A DNA stretch of 64,000 nucleotides from Octopus sinensis. Lineage: Eukaryota. Both the position numbers and the translations under genes were made by a program. This document shows, piece after piece, positions 3,650 through 59,502 of this stretch. The first letter of the stretch is position 1. The number at the start of each line of letters is the position of its first letter. Location of the stretch: the NCBI RefSeq assembly GCF_006345805.1, contig NC_043003.1, forward strand, positions 13,640,001 to 13,704,000, read 5' to 3'. The notes under the pieces are model-generated. The model had not been told where the DNA came from, made no database searches, and worked only from the letters and a program-made list of their open reading frames with translations.

Positions 3650-3928
3650 TCGAGCATGGTCGTTACCAATGTCGCTTCACTGGCACGTGTAAAAAGATTC
3701 GAGCGAGATCGTTGCCAGTGCCACCTGACTGGCCCCCATACCGCTGGCATGTAAAAAGCACCCAATACACTCTCGGAGTGGTTGGCATTAGGAAGGGCAT
3801 CCAGCTGTAGAAACTCTGCCAGATCAAGATTGGGGCCTGGTGCAGCCATCTGGCTCGCCAGCCCTCAGTCAAAATCGTCCAACCCATGCTAGCATGGAAG
3901 GCGGACGTTAAACGATGATGATGATGAT
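3650..3928 (+). mobile_element. RTE-related SINE/non-autonomous element (family D), (GAT)n tail
   Basis: GGTTGGCATTAGGAAGGGCATCCAGCTGTAGAAAC (RTE 5'UTR-like motif), then CCAACCCATGCTAGCATGGAAGGCGGACGTTAAAC(GAT)n. Further copies at ~12555-12830, 47270-47382, 57150-57310 and 62590-62772. Confidence 0.75.
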
Positions 3929-4014
3929 GTGTGTGGTAGCATTTGGATACACATTTGTGTTTGTGGATTGTTTGTGTGCAGCATGTACAGCGAATGCGTT
4001 TGATATGTCCAAAT

Positions 4015-4400
4015 TGTTTGCATGGCTTGGATGAAATTTGCTGAGGCAGATTTTTCTGTGGTTAGATGTCTTTCCTGTCACCAACCTTCACCTGTTTCCA
4101 AGCAAGGTGATATATTTCCCCATGACCAGACAAGGTTTTACAGGCGATTGGAAACAAAGGACACCACTTGCATGATGGTGACATTCGTTTACAACTATCA
4201 CATGATGTCAAGGAAAAGAGACAGTAACACACACAACAAGCTTCTTTCAGTTTCCATTCACCACAAATCCACTCACCAGCCTTTGATTGACCCAGAGCTA
4301 TGACTGACAGAAGGTACTTGCTTCAAGGTGCCATGCAGTGGAACCGAACTCAAAACCATGGGCTTGGGAAGCAAACTGCTTAGCATACAGCCATATCTAC
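4015..4400 (-). mobile_element. SINE with a family A head and an RTE-type tail (family E)
   Basis: Shares cacctgtttccaagcaaggt.atatttcccc with copies at ~38950-39330, 40940-41140, 43910-44262 and 56113-56755. Confidence 0.65.
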
Positions 4401-6758: not shown

Positions 6759-8293
6759 AGTCCAATTTTATTGCTCCCACTGTACTTGGAGGGTACTTAT
6801 TTCATTGACCCCAGAAAGATGGCTCTACAGGAATTTGAACTTACAAAGTAACTAAATACAACACACAGCACTTTACTAATTCTGCCACACCACCTGTGTA
6901 ATGACAATGACGATAAAAACAATGATGATGATGATGATGATGAAAATAAAATAGTCAAATCTACAGCTGTGCTGTGTGCTTACAGTTTTAAAAGCTTGTT
7001 AGTGAGACATAGCCAGGTGCCAGAGGTTTGCTACAGTAAACAGACTATAGTTTTCTTTGTTTCTATAAACAATGTTTTTCAACTCCAGTTTATAAAGTCA
7101 TAGACAAATATCAAGATGATGGATAGGCAAAAATCGTTAGTGAAGCACTGGACAGCAAAATGCCTGGCAGTATTTAGTTATGATCCTTCACGTTCTTGAG
7201 TTCAAATCTTGCTGGGGTTTGACTTTTATACTTCGTAACCAACGAACACTTCCTGCCAAATCTGTGGCCTGTTGTGCCTCTGTTAGAAATGATTATTGCT
7301 GGCAAATGCCACAAACATTTACCAAAACAAAATCAAGACAATCTTGTTAGCTTAATGGATAAATATCATTAACTGTGAAATTATAATTAAAAAGGAACTG
7401 ATGACTGAAGGGTGGCTTAAAAATAATTAAATAATGATTTAAAGTCATTTAATAGAGTGAGATAGTAAATTAAATTTTTTTATTATGTACACAAATTGAA
7501 GATGTGTGACTTTTGTGAGATTAGTTGCTGTTTAGCCTCAGACCAGCCCTGGTCAAGTAAATCTATGATCAAAGATACTGCAGCTAAAATGACTTTGTCA
7601 TTTTGGCAGGAAGGGCAGGTATTGTATACTCTAGACCAGTGCTATTCAAAGAGGTGGTCCACAGACCAGTATGGTCTGTGAGCCATCAGCTGCCAGTTTG
7701 TGGTGAGTTTCCAGAAAAGAAAGAAACATTATGAAATGCTTAAGTAATATTGCATTATTTGTTTACAAGGTAAAAAACAAAAAACTGTCAACTTTTATTA
7801 TATTTGTAGCGAGGCACAAGAAGCTAGCACCATTTTGAACGAGATCTCGCTGATATCAATACTAATTTCAAATTCTGGCACAAGGCCAGCAAATTCAAGG
7901 GAGGGGGTAAGTTGGTTACATCAACCCCAGTGTTCCAACGATACTTATCTTATCGACCCCAAAAGAATGAAAAGTAAAGTCAACCTCAGAGGAATTTGAA
8001 CTCAGAATGTTAAAGACGGATGAAACGCCAAGCATTTTGCCTGGCATGCTAACGATTCTGCCAGCCTACCACCTTAATGAAAAATATATATATATATATA
8101 TATATACTTTTCTACTCTAGGCACAATGCCCGAGGTTTTTGGGGTGGGAACCAGTCGATTAGATCAACCCCAGTATGCAACTGGTACTTAATTTTAATTT
8201 TACCGACCTCGAAAGGATGAAAGGCAAAGTCGTCCTTGGCAGGAACCAGCACCAATATTAACAAGACTCAAGCTCCATGTATAAAACTCTCAC

Positions 8294-23434: not shown

Positions 23435-23468
<34 letters not shown>

Positions 23469-23553
23469 TGTGTGTTTGTGTGTGTGTGTATGTATGTATG
23501 TATGTATGTATGTATGTATGTATGTATGTATGTATGTATGTATATATATATAT

Positions 23554-23956
23554 ATATTATATAATATTATTAGAGACAAAACCACTTTGTTGATAGGTTT
23601 ATTTTAGTTTATATATTGTTTATATATTGATTATATATGGATTATATATAGATTATATATTCATATTTTTTCATTAATACTTTAATTATTTTAAAATTAT
23701 TATTTTTATATTTTAAAATATTGATATTTTAGATTGGAAGTCCACCTGAAGATTGTCGATCAAGACAAGAAACAATTGTAGTGGCGGTTTTTTTGACTTT
23801 TTATTAAAATTTTATGTATTGATTAAGTCTTTCCTTGTTTGTTTTGCAAAATAGTGGTTTTGTCTCTAATAATATTATATAATATTTTACTATAAAATTG
23901 GATTTAATCCTAAATCTGATTTTTTCCCTGTAAATTTGGATTTATTCCCTAATATT

Positions 23957-23962
<6 letters not shown>
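23554..23962 (+). mobile_element. Penelope-like pLTR fragment with an inverted 33-bp 5' piece, in (TA)n
   Basis: 23554-23586 is the exact reverse complement of 23853-23885; contains the hammerhead below; flanked by (TA)n. Confidence 0.65.
23742..23784 (+). ncRNA. Minimal type I hammerhead ribozyme, canonical core
   Basis: CCAC-CTGAAGA-TTGTC-gatcaa-GACAA-GAAAC-aatt-GTA-GTGG: stem I CCAC/GTGG, core CUGANGA, 5-bp stem II, GAAA, palindromic stem III (ACAATTGT), GUA cleavage triplet. Confidence 0.85.
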
Positions 23963-24023
<61 letters not shown>

Positions 24024-33836: not shown

Positions 33837-35805
33837 ATTTATTTTGAGATGCTCTGTGTTTCTTTCAATTAATTTTAAATATAACAAAGAATTTAGTAAA
33901 ATAACCTAGTTATCATTAACCTAGTGTTAGGAACATAAATTTATGAAAACAAGACATTTGTACTACAGAGCCAAAGCCAGTTTCAACCGGGTTCGTAACG
34001 AAAGGGTTAAATGATGAATGCCTTATTTTGAAGAGTTACAGCATCAAAACATCAGAACTACTGCTCTGAGATGCTCAACCCTTTAGCATTCGGACAAGCT
34101 AGATCTGGTCTATTTGAAGAATATCAGGGCTGGATATGGCCAATTTAAATGGTAATGGGTTAACAGACTGCTACAGAACAAACTTCTGTCGTTTGGTCCT
34201 GTACATCATATCTACTACAACTACATAAATCAAAGCTACTCACTAGTTGTTACTGTTAATCTTTGTAGCTAGTTACCTCATCTTTACTGCATCCCCTCTT
34301 TCAATTTTTGTTGTGATTTACTGCCTTCCTATCAAATCACACACAAAGTAGCGTAACTTGATTGCATAAAAAGAGTCAACAGCCATGCTTCTCTCAACCC
34401 ACAGACTTAACATTTCTGCCATCACTGCACCTCATCGACAACACAAGCTCTCCTCGATAACAATTAGAGCCAGGCTCACCCTCTCCTTATCACATCTGTA
34501 CACCCTTAACACTGTCGCATACCAACCAACATATTTGTGCATTTTTCTCCGCCTTCTCTAGCAGCAAAAAAATACTCTGCACCGTTGCACACGTCTCTAG
34601 TGACAATTATTGTCTTCATATTACAGAGTTTTTCTGAACACTTACTGTAGATAGATATCTCATATTTCCATCAGAAAAATATTTCATGAAACTTTCTCTG
34701 CAACTAACTTGCTTGTTACACCTAACGTCTAATTGCACGGCTGGCTCTTTCTGTGTGTGTGTTTTTTTTTCTTTCCCCCTTTTCTTTTTGCTTATTTCAT
34801 ATCTATAAACAAACAAATGTACCTACACTCACACAAAAATAGACCTTTATATCTCTCTATTTCTTCTTTGGAAACTTACACGTAAAAACTAAAATCTTAG
34901 AAACAAGATGAGTGCAACTAGATAATAATAATAATAATAATAATCTCCCCAGTGTCAGAATTGAAGGCAATGATCTATAGAACATTGAACAAAAGTCTAT
35001 AATGATTTGCAAAGGCGCTGACATTTCTACACACAAAGGTTAGATTGTGTAACGTTTTGTTAGGTTAACCGACCTAGACAGTATTGATAAATAAAAGAGA
35101 AAGAGAATCGAAAAAAAATATATATTTTTAGAAAGCAGGTGTAAAAGAAAAAAAAAATGAGGATTATGTTGGAAATCATACAGGTATCAATCAACTAAAT
35201 GACTTGACATGATTGACAAAATGTGGTTATAGATGGAGGTAGGTGAGTGAGTATAAAAGAAACTCTAGCTACAATGTATAGGAGAATTTCATTCATAATT
35301 CCACTAAAAGTTCCATGCGATTAATGCTCGTTAAGTATTTCACTGTGGAAATCAGCTTATATCCACTCAAAATTTCATCACCCTTAATTATGGAAAGAAA
35401 TTTGTATACCGATCTATTTTTCATTGAGGAATGTCGTGTTTAAAACTATTTGTTTTTTGTTGAGAACATATTCAAATTTATGCAGAAGCATAAAAAAATT
35501 TCTTTTCAATTCTTTTTCTTTTTTATTGATATTTGCAACTGGTTTTATTTTACCATGTTTGTGTTGAACAACACTACTTTTGTTTTAATTAATTTCAAAA
35601 ATAATCAAGAACTTAATAAAATAACTTCATCGTTGTCAATCCGGTATTTGAAACATAAATTAACATGAAATTTTTGTTGGAAACTTTTTATTTGGAACAC
35701 TTATAAACATGAAGTTTGTGTCATAGAACAAGGGTCATTTTGGACGGGTTGGTATCAAAAGGGTTAACATCATTACTGGAATGACCATGAAATCTAATTT
35801 TGCAG

Positions 35806-36367
35806 TTACTGTGAAATAAGGCAGCGGATAACACTAGGCAGAGAGGCAATGGTCAGCATGAGCAAAGTCTCGAAGAGTAGAGACATCAGCCTCGCTACCA
35901 AATGCAGATTGGTGAATGCAATCGTCTTCCCAATAGCAACATATGGATGCGAGACCTGGACACTAAAGAAAGCTGACCAGAAGAGAATTAATGCATTCGA
36001 GCTTTGGTGTTGGAGAAGACTTTTGTGGATTCCATGGACTGCAAGGCTCACCAATGGAGAAGTTCTTAACCAGATCAAGCCAAAACTGTCGCTAGAAGCT
36101 AGGGTCACCAAGCATAGATTGGCATATTTCGGTCATATTATGCGAGAAAATCCCTGGAGAAGGACATCATGCTCGGAATGGTCAGTGGCAAGAGAGAAAG
36201 AGGCCGACCAAGAACCCGCTGGCTTGACACCATCAAGAGTGACACGGGAATAGTCATAGCCAATCTGAAAAAAGTGACCCAGGATAGAACTGGCTGGAGA
36301 ACACTGATCCCTCGAGTAATCGAGAGTCGACCTCGACTAAACGATAGATAGATAGATAGATAGATAG
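35806..36367 (+). mobile_element. 5'-truncated RTE-clade (BovB-like) LINE 3' end
   Basis: ORFs 35849-36253 and 36169-36351 join across one frameshift: TKCRLVNAIVFPIATYGCETWTLKKAD..INAFELWCWRRLL.IPWT..LAYFGHIMR / GKRERGRPRTRWLD; (GATA)n tail. Confidence 0.93.
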
Positions 36368-57527: not shown

Positions 57528-58736
57528 TATATATATATCAAATGTATGTGGTTAAGAAGCTTGTTTCGTAACCATGCAGTTTTGGGGTTCAGTCACAATG
57601 GGCAGCACTGTGGGTGATTGCCACTAATTCCTGGTGAATTTGGTAAATGTCATTGTGTTTGTTCCCCCAACTGATGGACAACTGGTGTTGGCTTGTTTAC
57701 CTAACTTAGCGGTTCAGCAAAAGATACTGATAGTATATGAGCCAGACTTTAAAAAAAACAGAGTTTTTAATTTCATTTGATATATATATATATATATATA
57801 TATGTAAATAAAACATCATCATCATCGTTTAACATCCGTTTTCCATGCTAGCATGGGTAACCATTGAAGAAATTTAGTTGCACAAATCAACCCCAGCGCT
57901 TTTTTTTTATTAAGCCTAGTCTCTTTTGCCAAACTGCTAAGTTACAGGAACAAACACAGACGTACACACACACACACACACACAACAGGCCTCTTAAAGT
58001 TTCCATGTACCAAGTCCACTCACAAGGCTTTGGTCAGCCCAACGATATAGAAGACACTAGCCCAGGTAGCCATGCAGGATGGGACTGAACCCGGAACCAT
58101 GCGGATGAGAAGCAAACTTCTTGCCACACGCAGCCACGCCTATAGCAAGCTGGTTTAGTTTTCTACATAACAGCACCCCCCCACCTAATTATAGCATATA
58201 TATAGGTAAACCATCTACGAGCACAGCAACAGCAACAGTCGGATCAGTAAGCTGCAGAAGTAAGGTATGCTAACGGTGATATGTGCAAGAGAAGACATAT
58301 GCAACACTTCAAGACAACTCTTCACAGAAAAAGAACGAGAGACAGAGAGAAAAGAAGAGGAAGACCAACATTTAAATATATCACAAGGAAGTAAGATACA
58401 ACAACAGGAGCAAATTTCTGTATATGAAGTTAAATTTTAAAAATATCAAATAACTTTCTTCTTAACTGACTACTCCGCCCCACACCCACACCCCCTCCTC
58501 CTCCCAAGTTCATTTATGTTAAGAATTCGCTGCTTCTAAAAATAATATAAACATTTTTAACTAGTTAAGAGTTTGTTTTGGAGCGTATCACTAAAGCAAT
58601 GCAGTTAGGGAAAGGAAAAAACTCAAGGTTATTAACAACAACGAAAACAACACATAGAGTGATGATAAAAGTTGATTTTCTTGGCCTAATTTACAAATAT
58701 ATACAATATATTATATATACATTATATTATATATAC

Positions 58737-58945
58737 ATCATCATCATCATCGTTTAACGTCCATTTTCCATGCTAGTGTGGGTTGGATGGTTCGACCGGG
58801 GTCTGGGAAGCCAGGAAGCTGCAGCGGGCTCCAGTTTGATCTGGCAGTGTTTCTACAGCTGGAAACCTTTCCTAACACCAACCACTCCATGAGTGTAGTT
58901 GGTGCTTTTTACGTGCCACCGACACATGTGTTTATTATATATATA

Positions 58946-59006
<61 letters not shown>

Positions 59007-59328
59007 ATATATGTGTGTATATATATATCTCTGTAGAGATATATGGAAAGTGGACATTAAACAATGATATGTGTGTGTGCACACACACATATATAAACAG
59101 ATTTGGATTGCCTATGTTCAGTTCACTGCAGGACACACACACACACACACATCATCATCGTTTAACATCCGCTTTCCATGCTAGCATGGGTTGGACGGTT
59201 CAACTGGGAGTCTGGGAATCCAGAAGGCTGCACCAGGCCCAGTCTGATCTGGCAGTGTTTCTACAGCTGGATGCCCTTCCTAACACCAACCACTCCATGA
59301 GTATAGTGGGTGCTTTTTACGTGCCACC

Positions 59329-59361
<33 letters not shown>

Positions 59362-59502
59362 TTAACGTCCGCTTTCCATGCTAGCATGGGTTGGACGGTT
59401 CAACTGGGGTCTGGGGAGCCCGAAAGCTGCACCAGTCCAGTCAGATCTGGCAGTGTTTCTACAGCTGGATGCCCTTCCTAACGCCAACCACTCCGAGAGT
59501 GT
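58737..59502 (-). mobile_element. Three co-oriented family D 3' fragments
   Basis: (CAT)n-TTTAAC.TCC..TTTCCATGCTAG begins at ~58737, 59150 and 59330. Confidence 0.85.

What the first reader, a model, noticed from the sequence alone, without database searches (positions are those of the whole stretch)
23742..23784. Canonical minimal type I hammerhead ribozyme in an AT-rich Penelope-like fragment
Seen: all core nucleotides (CUGAAGA, GAAA, GUA) and all three stems are present in otherwise very AT-rich DNA, and stem III is the palindrome ACAAUUGU. Established: minimal type I hammerheads with short palindromic stem III mark Penelope-like element pLTRs and are thought to cleave as dimers. Inference: this is a potentially active self-cleaving RNA that could cut any plus-strand transcript crossing it.
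Basis: partly seen in the sequence, partly recalled or inferred. Interest (0 to 1): 0.75.

Follow-up and report, generated by a model that had tools for sequence, protein, structure and literature searches.

The report
Penelope-like element's minimal hammerhead ribozyme motif
The window holds a real minimal hammerhead-ribozyme motif inside a broken-off end piece of a Penelope-like jumping gene present in this genome in many hundreds of copies; it is an ordinary member of a known class, and this lone copy would likely not cut RNA on its own.

Summary
The motif is in the sequence exactly as described: CCAC/CUGAAGA/UUGUC-GAUCAA-GACAA/GAAA/CAAUUGU/A/GUGG at 23742-23784. A strict descriptor hits once in the window and in 0 of 200 shuffles.

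It lies in a 376-bp, 5'-truncated, non-coding repeat copy (23587-23962). A 29-bp inverted fragment of the same repeat abuts its 5' end, and both ends run into (TA)n.

Genome searches show this is the terminal part (pseudo-LTR region) of an autonomous retroelement:
- In longer copies the hammerhead sits 238 nt upstream of an ORF of about 840 aa.
- That ORF aligns by profile comparison (96% probability) to the reverse transcriptase of RT+GIY-YIG Penelope-like elements of the same genome.
- The family shows the published hallmarks of such elements: 5' truncation, adjacent inverted truncated copies, an extra tail at one end only, partial tandems, and insertion into microsatellites.

Across diverged subfamilies the hammerhead is a conserved island, with a compensatory A-U/G-U/G-C series in the palindromic helix III.

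Caveats:
- Rfam models miss it.
- The 10.1-11.1 pair is U-A, not G-C.
- The covariation statistics are weak.
- No RNA evidence was obtainable.
- The window copy has no partner in cis, so cleavage here is doubtful.

This is a new member of a known kind, of moderate-to-low interest.

The parts
23440..23557 (.). Compound microsatellite (GA)n(TG)n(TATG)n(TA)n on the left of the insertion; probable target site
   Evidence: Read. Copies elsewhere are likewise bounded by (TA)n.
23558..23586 (-). Inverted, extremely 5'-truncated fragment (29 nt) of the same element. It ends at the 'short-form' 3' end and lies head-to-head with the forward copy.
   Evidence: It is the reverse complement of 23853-23881 (arms 23545-23592 and 23847-23894, 88% complementary). 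Inverted partners of variable length (about 30 to 455 nt) sit at the 5' end of 20 of 30 sampled copies.
23587..23962 (+). Forward, 5'-truncated, non-coding copy: the last 376 bp of the element's pseudo-LTR region, ending at the 'long-form' 3' end
   Evidence: It is 94-98% identical to the other 39 copies scored. In the 29 other copies aligned the sequence continues further 5'.
23742..23784 (+). Minimal type I hammerhead motif: helix I 23742-45/23781-84, core 23746-52, helix II 23753-57/23764-68, loop 2 23758-63, GAA 23769-71, helix III palindrome 23772-79. Predicted cleavage is 3' of A23780.
   Evidence: The motif is intact in 21 of 30 copies sampled by their tail only.
23812..23881 (+). Conserved 3' block ending at the short-form 3' end (...AATAATATTATATA); likely the region where reverse transcription starts
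   Evidence: It shows 89% mean pairwise identity among 13 diverged subfamily copies, but those copies were selected on this block. In the first sample (L001-L030) all 8 inverted copies, and 2 of the 30 forward copies, end here.
23882..23962 (+). Extension ('tail') of about 80 nt, present at the forward end only
   Evidence: 28 of 30 forward copies run to this end. 0 of 8 inverted copies in sample 1 do, and none of the 20 inverted copies in sample 2 do.
23963..24019 (.). (TA)n on the right of the insertion
   Evidence: same in the other copies.

Best explanation
Window 23742-23784 is the minimal type I hammerhead motif of the pseudo-LTR of a high-copy Penelope-like retrotransposon, carried here by a 376-bp 5'-truncated dead copy. 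It is predicted to cleave (after A23780) only when paired with a second copy or helped by the element's protein.

**Shown**
- The motif is present.
- The repeat family exists and the element has the anatomy ORF, 3'UTR and about 4-kb non-coding body, hammerhead, about 105/181-nt tail; in partial tandems this runs on into the next ORF, whose ATG lies 238 nt past the cleavage site.
- The ORF is homologous to a Penelope-like element's reverse transcriptase.
- The insertion signatures of such elements are present.

**Inferred**
- New copies are made by target-primed reverse transcription that starts at one of two sites about 105 and 181 nt downstream of the hammerhead, on both strands of a cut (TA)n target. 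This would give the forward copy plus the inverted truncated partner seen in the window.
- In transcripts that carry two hammerheads (tandem or more-than-unit RNA), the palindrome ACAAUUGU pairs between the two motifs to build a double hammerhead that trims the RNA.
- The window copy, being single, is probably inert.
For: **Motif**
- Core and helices are read directly.
- The strict descriptor hits 0 of 200 shuffles.
- Two 43-mers cofold to a double hammerhead at -22.0 kcal/mol, with intermolecular 8-bp helix III, both helices II and helices I in trans. The monomer folds at -6.5.

**Family size**
- 1190 first-look candidates for the 331-nt query; 40 were scored and all are 94-100% identical.
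- 365 candidates for the 170-nt tail.

**Penelope-like signatures**
- Variable 5' truncation.
- An inverted 5'-truncated partner in 20 of 30 loci.
- The tail extension is on forward copies (28 of 30) and never on inverted ones (0 of 8; 0 of 20).
- (TA)n at both ends.
- Partial tandems: L107 has a 408-nt period, 2.6 copies, 99% matching. In 15 of the 18 linker-query loci read through (L175-L192) the linker runs on into ORF sequence (tail upstream in all 18), and 5 of them share at least about 2 kb around it.
- These are the hallmarks listed in PMC8557442 (passages). They agree with PMC11167929 (passages): both strands cut and extended, two internal RT start sites about 90 nt past the hammerhead cut, AT-rich targets.

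**Coding partner**
- ORFs follow the hammerhead and tail, with an open frame of up to 859 aa.
- hhalign against the RVT_1+GIY-YIG element ORFs gives 96.2%, E 2.3e-9, over 435 columns including the YxDD block (Pfam of the template).
- Nearest Atlas clusters carry HTH_animal, GIY-YIG, DUF8422 and RVT_1.

**Selection on the motif**
- Among 13 diverged copies chosen by their 3' block only, mean pairwise identity is 40% upstream, 84.5% in the hammerhead without loop 2, 29% in loop 2 and 52% in the spacer.
- Helix III pair 58-61 is AU in 10, GC in 7, GU in 3 and unpaired in 0 of 20 variants.

**Other families**: other Penelope-like families of the genome carry analogous minimal hammerheads near their (TA)n-bounded 3' ends.
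Against: - No hammerhead hit from Rfam at any threshold.
- The 10.1-11.1 pair is U-A here. Across 20 variants it is AU in 6, UA in 6 and unpaired in 8, whereas G-C is described as highly conserved (PMC4209133).
- Whole-structure covariation is not above the shuffle control: the score is reached by 58 of 500 shuffles and the percentage paired by 92 of 500. The 20 variants were picked with a pattern that required most of the core, so core invariance in that set is circular.
- Inserted copies contain the hammerhead uncut, with sequence on both sides, so the templates had not been cleaved there, or had been re-ligated.
- 5' ends of copies are not clearly enriched at the cleavage site: 3 of 21 inverted copies lie within 8 nt.
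- Pfam finds neither RVT_1 nor GIY-YIG in the linked ORF. BLASTP to the other element's ORF is not significant.
- No RNA evidence exists.
- Intactness of 21 of 30 copies is uninformative, because the copies are 95-100% identical.
Confidence: 0.8

Rival explanations
1. The sequence is conserved in the element's RNA but is not a working ribozyme. On this reading the hammerhead-like island serves as a binding or folding site for the element's reverse transcriptase, or as part of a promoter, and no cleavage occurs.
For: - U-A instead of G-C at 10.1-11.1, and 8 of 20 variants are unpaired there.
- Helix I is only 4 bp and there are no loop-loop contacts.
- Copies are reverse-transcribed straight through the motif.
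- Published minimal hammerheads of this class had low or protein-dependent activity (PMC4209133; PMC11167929).
- PMC8557442 notes that elements without hammerheads proliferate well.
Against: - All catalytic core positions are kept across subfamilies whose loop 2 ranges from 6 to 29 nt.
- Helix III keeps its self-complementarity through A-U, G-U and G-C states.
- The 3 copies compared of a second, unrelated Penelope-like family of this genome keep a comparable motif at the same relative place; further minimal hammerheads elsewhere in the sampled loci were not tied to a family or position.
Confidence: 0.15
2. The family works as a retrozyme. Short deletion derivatives in tandem would be transcribed, cut at successive hammerheads, circularised by a host ligase and copied by rolling-circle reverse transcription. 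The window copy would be one product of that process.
For: - L107 holds a 408-nt unit repeated 2.6 times at 99% identity between (TA)n runs.
- L097 holds a 341-nt period repeated 2.1 times.
- Unit size and AT-richness fit non-LTR retrozymes (PMC7229834 passages).
- A 2026 preprint proposes that animal retrozymes derive from Penelope-like pseudo-LTRs (abstract only).
Against: - Only 1 of 30 tail-sampled loci is such a tandem.
- The window copy is single, and its upstream part is the long non-coding body, not a tandem unit.
- The L107 unit is explained as an internal deletion of the autonomous element with TAG microhomology.
- No circular RNA evidence exists (one search was unusable).
Confidence: 0.04
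3. The 23545-23894 inverted repeat marks a MITE or foldback DNA transposon, and the hammerhead-like string is a chance match inside it.
For: Arms 23545-23592 and 23847-23894 are 88% complementary over 48 nt. The loose descriptor finds about 1 chance hit per shuffled window.
Against: - The left arm is not a fixed terminal repeat. In other loci the inverted partner varies from about 30 to 455 nt or is absent, and the forward copy is variably 5'-truncated.
- The two ends are asymmetric.
- The element continues into an RT-like ORF.
- The strict descriptor hits 0 of 200 shuffles.
Confidence: 0.01

Closest known systems
Minimal hammerhead motifs (min-HHRs) of metazoan Penelope-like elements (Cervera & de la Pena 2014, PMC4209133; parts 1-2 read)
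   Same: - Type I topology, short helix I (4 bp), no loop 3, palindromic helix III implying dimeric action.
- Location in the pseudo-LTR.
- Mostly dispersed as single motifs in truncated copies.
- Pairs on opposite strands 100-700 bp apart.
- Massive copy number.
   Different: - Helix II is 5 bp (6-8 bp described).
- 10.1-11.1 is U-A or A-U rather than the 'highly conserved' G-C.
[quoted passage not shown]
- Sequence variation within the family is low, as reported for D. virilis, rather than high.
Poseidon element PAc of Anolis carolinensis (Frangieh et al. 2024, PMC11167929; passages read)
   Same: - Hammerhead just upstream of or at the ORF start.
- Copy ends (RT start sites) about 90-105 nt past the hammerhead cut.
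- Two alternative start sites giving a one-sided 'tail'.
- Both DNA strands extended, which explains the inverted partner.
- AT-rich targets.
   Different: - Here the hammerhead is 238 nt upstream of the ATG and does not overlap it.
- The 'tail' is about 77-80 nt rather than 30-40 nt.
- There is about 4 kb of non-coding repetitive body between the ORF end and the next hammerhead.
- Nothing has been tested biochemically.
Non-LTR retrozymes of animals (Cervera & de la Pena 2020, PMC7229834; passages read)
   Same: Type I hammerhead in AT-rich repeats of a few hundred bp. A rare tandem form of 408 nt exists in this family (L107).
   Different: - Retrozymes carry canonical hammerheads in multi-copy tandems and are shown to make circular RNAs.
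- Here tandems are rare, the motif is the minimal variant, and the window copy is a solitary fragment of an autonomous element.

Membership tests
Hammerhead ribozyme, minimal type I variant | Catalytic core C3 U4 G5 A6 N7 G8 A9 ... G12 A13 A14, A15.1-U16.1, H17 | tested here: met
   CUGAAGA, GAAA and ...U-A are read and found by the descriptor.
Hammerhead ribozyme, minimal type I variant | Helix I open (type I) and helix II closed by a loop, both adjacent to the core | tested here: met
   Helix I is 4 bp and helix II is 5 bp plus a 6-nt loop. 96% of helix I cells and 78% of helix II cells are paired in 20 variants.
Hammerhead ribozyme, minimal type I variant | No loop 3; palindromic helix III able to pair between two copies | tested here: met
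   ACAAUUGU is present. The cofold minimum-energy structure uses it as an 8-bp intermolecular helix. 100% of cells are paired in 20 variants, with an AU/GU/GC series at one pair.
Hammerhead ribozyme, minimal type I variant | G10.1-C11.1 pair (described as highly conserved in PMC4209133) | tested here: not met
   It is U-A in the window. Across 20 variants it is AU in 6, UA in 6 and unpaired in 8.
Hammerhead ribozyme, minimal type I variant | [quoted passage not shown] | tested here: inconclusive
   U23753 can be read either as that nucleotide (helix II then 4 bp) or as 10.1 paired with A23768.
Hammerhead ribozyme (Rfam hammerhead families) | Covariance-model score at or above the gathering score | tested here: not met
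   No hammerhead match at gathering score or at E<=10. The control shows that the models also miss the other minimal hammerheads.
Hammerhead ribozyme | Site-specific self-cleavage | not testable with these tools
   No raw RNA reads were available.
Penelope-like element | Reverse transcriptase of the Penelope-like type in the element's ORF | tested here: met
   hhalign of the ORF family (A2) against RVT_1+GIY-YIG element ORFs (A3) gives 96.2%, E 2.3e-9, over 435 columns. However, Pfam gives no direct hit and no RT phylogeny was made.
Penelope-like element | GIY-YIG endonuclease domain | tested here: inconclusive
   VVYKC...VYIGSTS...R..H is read by eye at the C-terminus. Pfam GIY-YIG is found only in 1 of 6 homologues, at 17.6 bits, below the 22.6 cut-off.
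Penelope-like element | 5' truncation, partial tandems (pseudo-LTRs), and an adjacent inverted 5'-truncated copy | tested here: met
   The window itself has the inverted fragment at 23558-23586.
Penelope-like element | One-sided 'tail' extension from two RT start sites | tested here: met
   Forward copies reach the long end in 28 of 30 cases. Inverted copies do so in 0 of 8 and 0 of 20. The extension is about 77-80 nt, longer than the published 30-40 nt.
Penelope-like element | Insertion bias for microsatellites or AT-rich DNA | tested here: met
   (TA)n abuts both ends in the window and in most of the aligned copies.
Non-LTR retrozyme | Tandem array of short units, each with a hammerhead | tested here: not met
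   The window copy is single. Only 1 of 30 sampled loci (L107) is a 408-nt tandem.
MITE / terminal-inverted-repeat DNA transposon | Constant terminal inverted repeats with target-site duplication | tested here: not met
   The inverted partner is variable in length or absent, and the ends are asymmetric.

The most novel reading that the evidence does not exclude
This is a recently active, very AT-rich and sequence-divergent Penelope-like family, probably of an octopod genome. Its RNA keeps just two conserved islands: a U-A-variant minimal hammerhead, and the RT start block about 100 nt downstream. Its deletion derivatives (a short form, and a 408-nt tandem form inserted as a 2.6-mer) would show retrozyme-like elements arising directly from a Penelope-like pseudo-LTR in an invertebrate. 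The multimeric insert would be made by reverse transcription of a circular or concatemeric hammerhead-processed RNA.
Probability: 0.2. Interest if true: 0.6.

Novelty: new member of a known kind. Interest (0 to 1): 0.3.

Why it matters
Minimal hammerheads in Penelope-like pseudo-LTRs have been known since 2014, so the finding adds an example rather than a principle.

Its use is practical:
- The family is young: copies are 94-100% identical and open frames reach 859 aa.
- It is abundant.
- It shows, in one family, the hammerhead, the two RT start sites, head-to-head insertions, and tandem mini-derivatives.

That makes it a convenient natural data set for two open questions: what the hammerhead does in the Penelope-like life cycle, and whether animal retrozymes are pseudo-LTR derivatives.

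For annotation, the finding warns that Rfam models miss this whole class and that Pfam misses the RT of this family. My searches of the held library found no paper on hammerheads or retrozymes specifically in cephalopods.

Tried and rejected
- **Rfam:** whole window at gathering score, and E<=10 on 501 nt and on 76 nt, gave no hammerhead. The control on four loci holding other minimal hammerheads was also blank.
- **Monomer fold of 61 nt:** the minimum-energy structure is not a hammerhead, z = 0.11. This is expected for a motif whose helix III cannot form in cis.
- **Sequencing runs:** no RNA holder listed; all runs are contigs and 'RNA' is a guess.
- **Laying four runs on L107:560-1700:** short high-depth contigs only, with no joints usable for ends, strand or circles. 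Nothing is concluded about expression.
- **Covariation statistics:** not above the shuffles.
- **Enrichment of copy 5' ends at the cleavage site:** 3 of 21, not convincing.
- **Autonomous partner, early looks:** the first three extended loci have no RT-type ORF. The abundant 780/781-aa RT+GIY-YIG family and 20 further GIY-YIG loci do not share the tail. tblastn of that ORF against 135 element loci gave only neighbours inserted in the same (TA)n. The true partner was found only by following the sequence 3' of the tail.
- **Direct hits for the linked ORF:** Pfam, BLASTP and PDB sequence searches were all negative.
- **An 'AG|ATTGGAAGT' boundary shared by three upstream contexts** looked like a splice acceptor. 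It is explained instead by internal deletions of one element.
- **Earlier scan notes:** none for this genome. The sequence look-up returned an unrelated archaeal casposon.

Full report
**Observation**

Window 23742-23784 reads CCAC CUGAAGA UUGUC GAUCAA GACAA GAAA CAAUUGU A GUGG. This gives:
- the hammerhead core (C3 U4 G5 A6 A7 G8 A9; G12 A13 A14; A15.1...U16.1; A17);
- a 4-bp open helix I;
- a 5-bp helix II with a 6-nt loop;
- a helix III that is the loop-less palindrome ACAAUUGU (23772-23779).

A descriptor of my own finds this site and nothing else on either strand of the 64 kb. In 200 dinucleotide-preserving shuffles the loose descriptor gives 0.98 hits per window, the version with a palindromic helix III gives 0.10, and a strict version gives 0.00. 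The strict thresholds were chosen after seeing the motif.

Rfam reports no hammerhead at gathering score or at E<=10 on 501 or 76 nt. It also misses the other minimal hammerheads that the descriptor finds in L048, L120, L065 and L107, so this negative says little.

One departure from the textbook motif: the pair next to the core (10.1-11.1) is U-A, not G-C.

**The repeat around it**

The genome (2.72 Gb, 13,516 contigs; the window is C7:13640001-13704000) holds at least 1190 first-look candidates for 23560-23890. All 40 scored are 94-100% identical.

Aligning 30 loci delimits the window copy as 23587-23962. It is followed by (TA)n and preceded by a 29-nt inverted fragment (23558-23586, the reverse complement of 23853-23881) and a compound microsatellite.

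Other copies continue further 5', so the window copy is 5'-truncated.

The inverted repeat seen by the repeat finder is not a fixed terminal repeat. In other loci the inverted partner is about 30 to 455 nt long or absent.

The two ends differ:
- Forward copies run to a 'long' end (...CCCTAATATTTATTAT) in 28 of 30 cases.
- Inverted partners always stop about 77-80 nt earlier, at a 'short' end (...AATAATATTATATA): 0 of 8 reach the long end and 0 of 20.

**The element is a Penelope-like retrotransposon**

Early extensions found only non-coding sequence upstream of the hammerhead. This is a body of about 4 kb with internal 1.2-kb and 0.4-kb repeats and no second hammerhead.

The genome is full of GIY-YIG sequences: 5029 first-look candidates, and 149 of 150 scored match. 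The commonest 780/781-aa family has Pfam RVT_1 followed by GIY-YIG. However, neither that family nor 20 further GIY-YIG loci share the tail.

The link came from following the sequence 3' of the long end:
- A 173-nt 'linker' has 329 candidates.
- Of the 18 linker loci I read through (L175-L192), all have the tail upstream and 15 continue from the linker into ORF sequence; 5 of them (L178, L180, L183, L185, L192) share at least about 2 kb across this stretch.
- In L180+L193 the first base after the cleavage site is at 1319 and an ATG at 1557, that is 238 nt downstream.
- Open frames of 124, 103, 481 and 154 aa follow, down to about 4070.
- About 20 nt after the stop, the sequence is the 5' part of the 'body' that precedes the hammerhead in the non-coding copies (95% identity over 454 nt).

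The unit is therefore ORF, 3'UTR and body, hammerhead, tail. In partial tandems it runs on through the linker into the next ORF.

Other copies keep open frames of up to 859 aa.

Evidence on the ORF:
- Pfam, BLASTP and a PDB sequence search see nothing in it.
- Six homologues were found in the large protein collection. Two are named by their source as Argonauta hians and Octopus bimaculoides proteins. From this I infer that the genome is a cephalopod's, probably an octopod's.
- The profile of these sequences matches the RVT_1+GIY-YIG ORFs at 96.2% probability, E 2.3e-9, over 435 columns, including the YxDD block.
- The nearest Atlas clusters carry HTH_animal, GIY-YIG, DUF8422 and RVT_1.
- GIY-YIG itself stays unproven: motifs by eye, and a sub-threshold Pfam hit in 1 of 6 homologues.

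The structural hallmarks are those listed for Penelope-like elements in PMC8557442 (passages): 5' truncation, partial tandems, an adjacent inverted truncated copy, a one-sided tail, and a microsatellite target. They fit the biochemistry of the Anolis element in PMC11167929 (passages): both strands cut and extended, and two internal RT start sites roughly 90 nt past the hammerhead cut.

**Derivatives**

I sampled 30 loci by the 170 nt downstream of the cleavage site only (365 candidates, 40 scored). Their context upstream of the hammerhead is:

| Upstream context | Loci (of 30) |
|---|---|
| Long body (includes the window) | 9 |
| Short form | 16 |
| 408-nt tandem (L107) | 1 |
| Truncated inside the motif | 4 |

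- In the short form, the 5' flank matches a 24-nt stretch of the body's 1.2-kb repeat, so it is an internal deletion.
- The tandem, L107, has 2.6 units at 99% identity. It is an internal deletion that joins codon about 42 of the ORF to the hammerhead with TAG microhomology.

**Is the motif under selection?**

Within the young family it is intact in 21 of 30 copies, with 5 mutated and 4 truncated. This is uninformative at 95-100% identity.

A search with a diverged tail gave copies of 86-100% identity from several subfamilies. In an alignment of 13 of them, chosen by the 3' block and regardless of whether the motif is intact, mean pairwise identity is as follows:

| Region | Mean pairwise identity |
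|---|---|
| Upstream 60 columns | 40% |
| Hammerhead without loop 2 | 84.5% |
| Loop 2 | 29% |
| Spacer | 52% |
| 3' block (selected on) | 89% |

A second subfamily has at least 780 candidates. It keeps the core with a different, longer helix II and with helix III ACGAUCGU.

On 20 distinct variants (alignment A1) the named structure pairs 89.6% of cells. One helix III pair is AU in 10, GC in 7, GU in 3 and unpaired in 0. The 10.1-11.1 pair is AU in 6, UA in 6 and unpaired in 8.

Against this:
- Shuffles reach the covariation score in 58 of 500 and the percentage paired in 92 of 500.
- The 20 variants were collected with a pattern that demanded most of the core.
- So the statistical support from covariation is weak.

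The argument for selection rests on the conserved island, and on a comparable minimal hammerhead kept at the same relative position in a second, unrelated Penelope-like family of this genome. That family is the 780-aa one, which has a U3-A8 core variant about 80 nt from its (TA)n end and keeps it with small changes in 3 of 3 copies. The descriptor also finds other minimal hammerheads elsewhere in the sampled loci, but I did not tie them to a family or a position.

**How it would work**

Two 43-mers cofold into a double hammerhead at -22.0 kcal/mol. The palindromes form an 8-bp intermolecular helix III, both helices II form, and helices I pair in trans. A single copy reaches -6.5.

This is the dimer model of PMC4209133 (read). 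That paper also reports no activity for a single minimal motif and weak activity for dimers. PMC11167929 reports protein-assisted cleavage.

The window holds one hammerhead only, and its inverted partner (29 nt) does not include the motif. A transcript through the window could therefore not build the dimer in cis. I judge this copy probably inert.

At family level I infer that the motif trims more-than-unit or tandem transcripts. Set against an obligatory role:
- copies are reverse-transcribed through an uncut motif;
- copy 5' ends are not clearly enriched at the cleavage bond: 3 of 21 lie within 8 nt.

No RNA evidence could be had.

**Verdict**

'Canonical' is too strong, because 10.1-11.1 is U-A and Rfam is blind to the motif. 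'Could cut any transcript crossing it' is unlikely for a lone copy.

The thing is a new member of a known kind. I found no paper in the held library on hammerheads or retrozymes specifically in cephalopods (listings only).

Noticed in passing
L046:6663-6707 (G000:C6:82394000-82403500); also L047, L048: The abundant 780/781-aa RT+GIY-YIG element family carries a minimal hammerhead-like motif with the U3-A8 core variant (AUUU UUGAUAA GGUUC...GAACC GAAA CAUGU A AAAU). It lies about 80 nt from the element's (TA)n-bounded 3' end and is kept with small changes in 3 of 3 copies.
   Followed up: partly
L048:7129 (both strands), L120:1088, L065:1965, L047 (minus strand): Further, unrelated minimal hammerhead motifs with G10.1-C11.1 and palindromic helix III (ACAAUUGU, ACGCGU, ACAGCUGU) turned up in about 0.5 Mb of sampled loci. 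The genome seems rich in such motifs.
   Followed up: no
L168 (G000:C16:41693880-41696972), about 1440-1500 in the orientation of the match: A head-to-head pair of copies is joined exactly at the helix III palindrome (CCGCCACTACAATTGTAGTGGCGG). It looks as if the cDNA switched templates at the self-complementary octamer.
   Followed up: no
window 23779-23795 and 23851-23866; L046:6728-6745: A short motif, TAGTGG(C)(G)GTTTT, occurs at the hammerhead's 3' side and again about 30 nt from the short-form end. A near-identical string sits about 38 nt from the 3' end of the unrelated 780-aa element. It may be an RT recognition element, or it may be chance.
   Followed up: no
window 3663-4061 (-), 58676-59365 (+); many locus flanks (e.g. 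L046:2790-3020, 6790-7030): An abundant SINE-like repeat (CATCATCATC...GTTTAACGTCCG...CCATGCTGGCATGGGTTGGACGG...) is also inserted next to (TA)n. It mimicked a direct repeat around one element.
   Followed up: partly
window 35798-36253 (+): A 151-aa open frame (...CETWTLKKADQKRINAFELWCWRRLLWIPWTARLTNGEVL...) looks like the C-terminal part of a LINE-type reverse transcriptase. This reading is from recall and was not scanned. No other convincing coding sequence was seen in the window's ORF list.
   Followed up: no
L107:641-1687 (G000:C2:66799311-66802480); L097:1475-2183: Multimeric insertions are present: a 408-nt unit x 2.6 copies at 99% identity, and a 341-nt period x 2.1 copies, each between (TA)n runs.
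   Followed up: partly
L180+L193 position about 4546; L185+L194 position about 4548: Two ORF-containing copies end at the same point, about 450 nt past the stop codon (...CATTCGC), not in (TA)n. One has an inverted 452-nt partner ending there too. This suggests a third reverse-transcription start site for this element.
   Followed up: no
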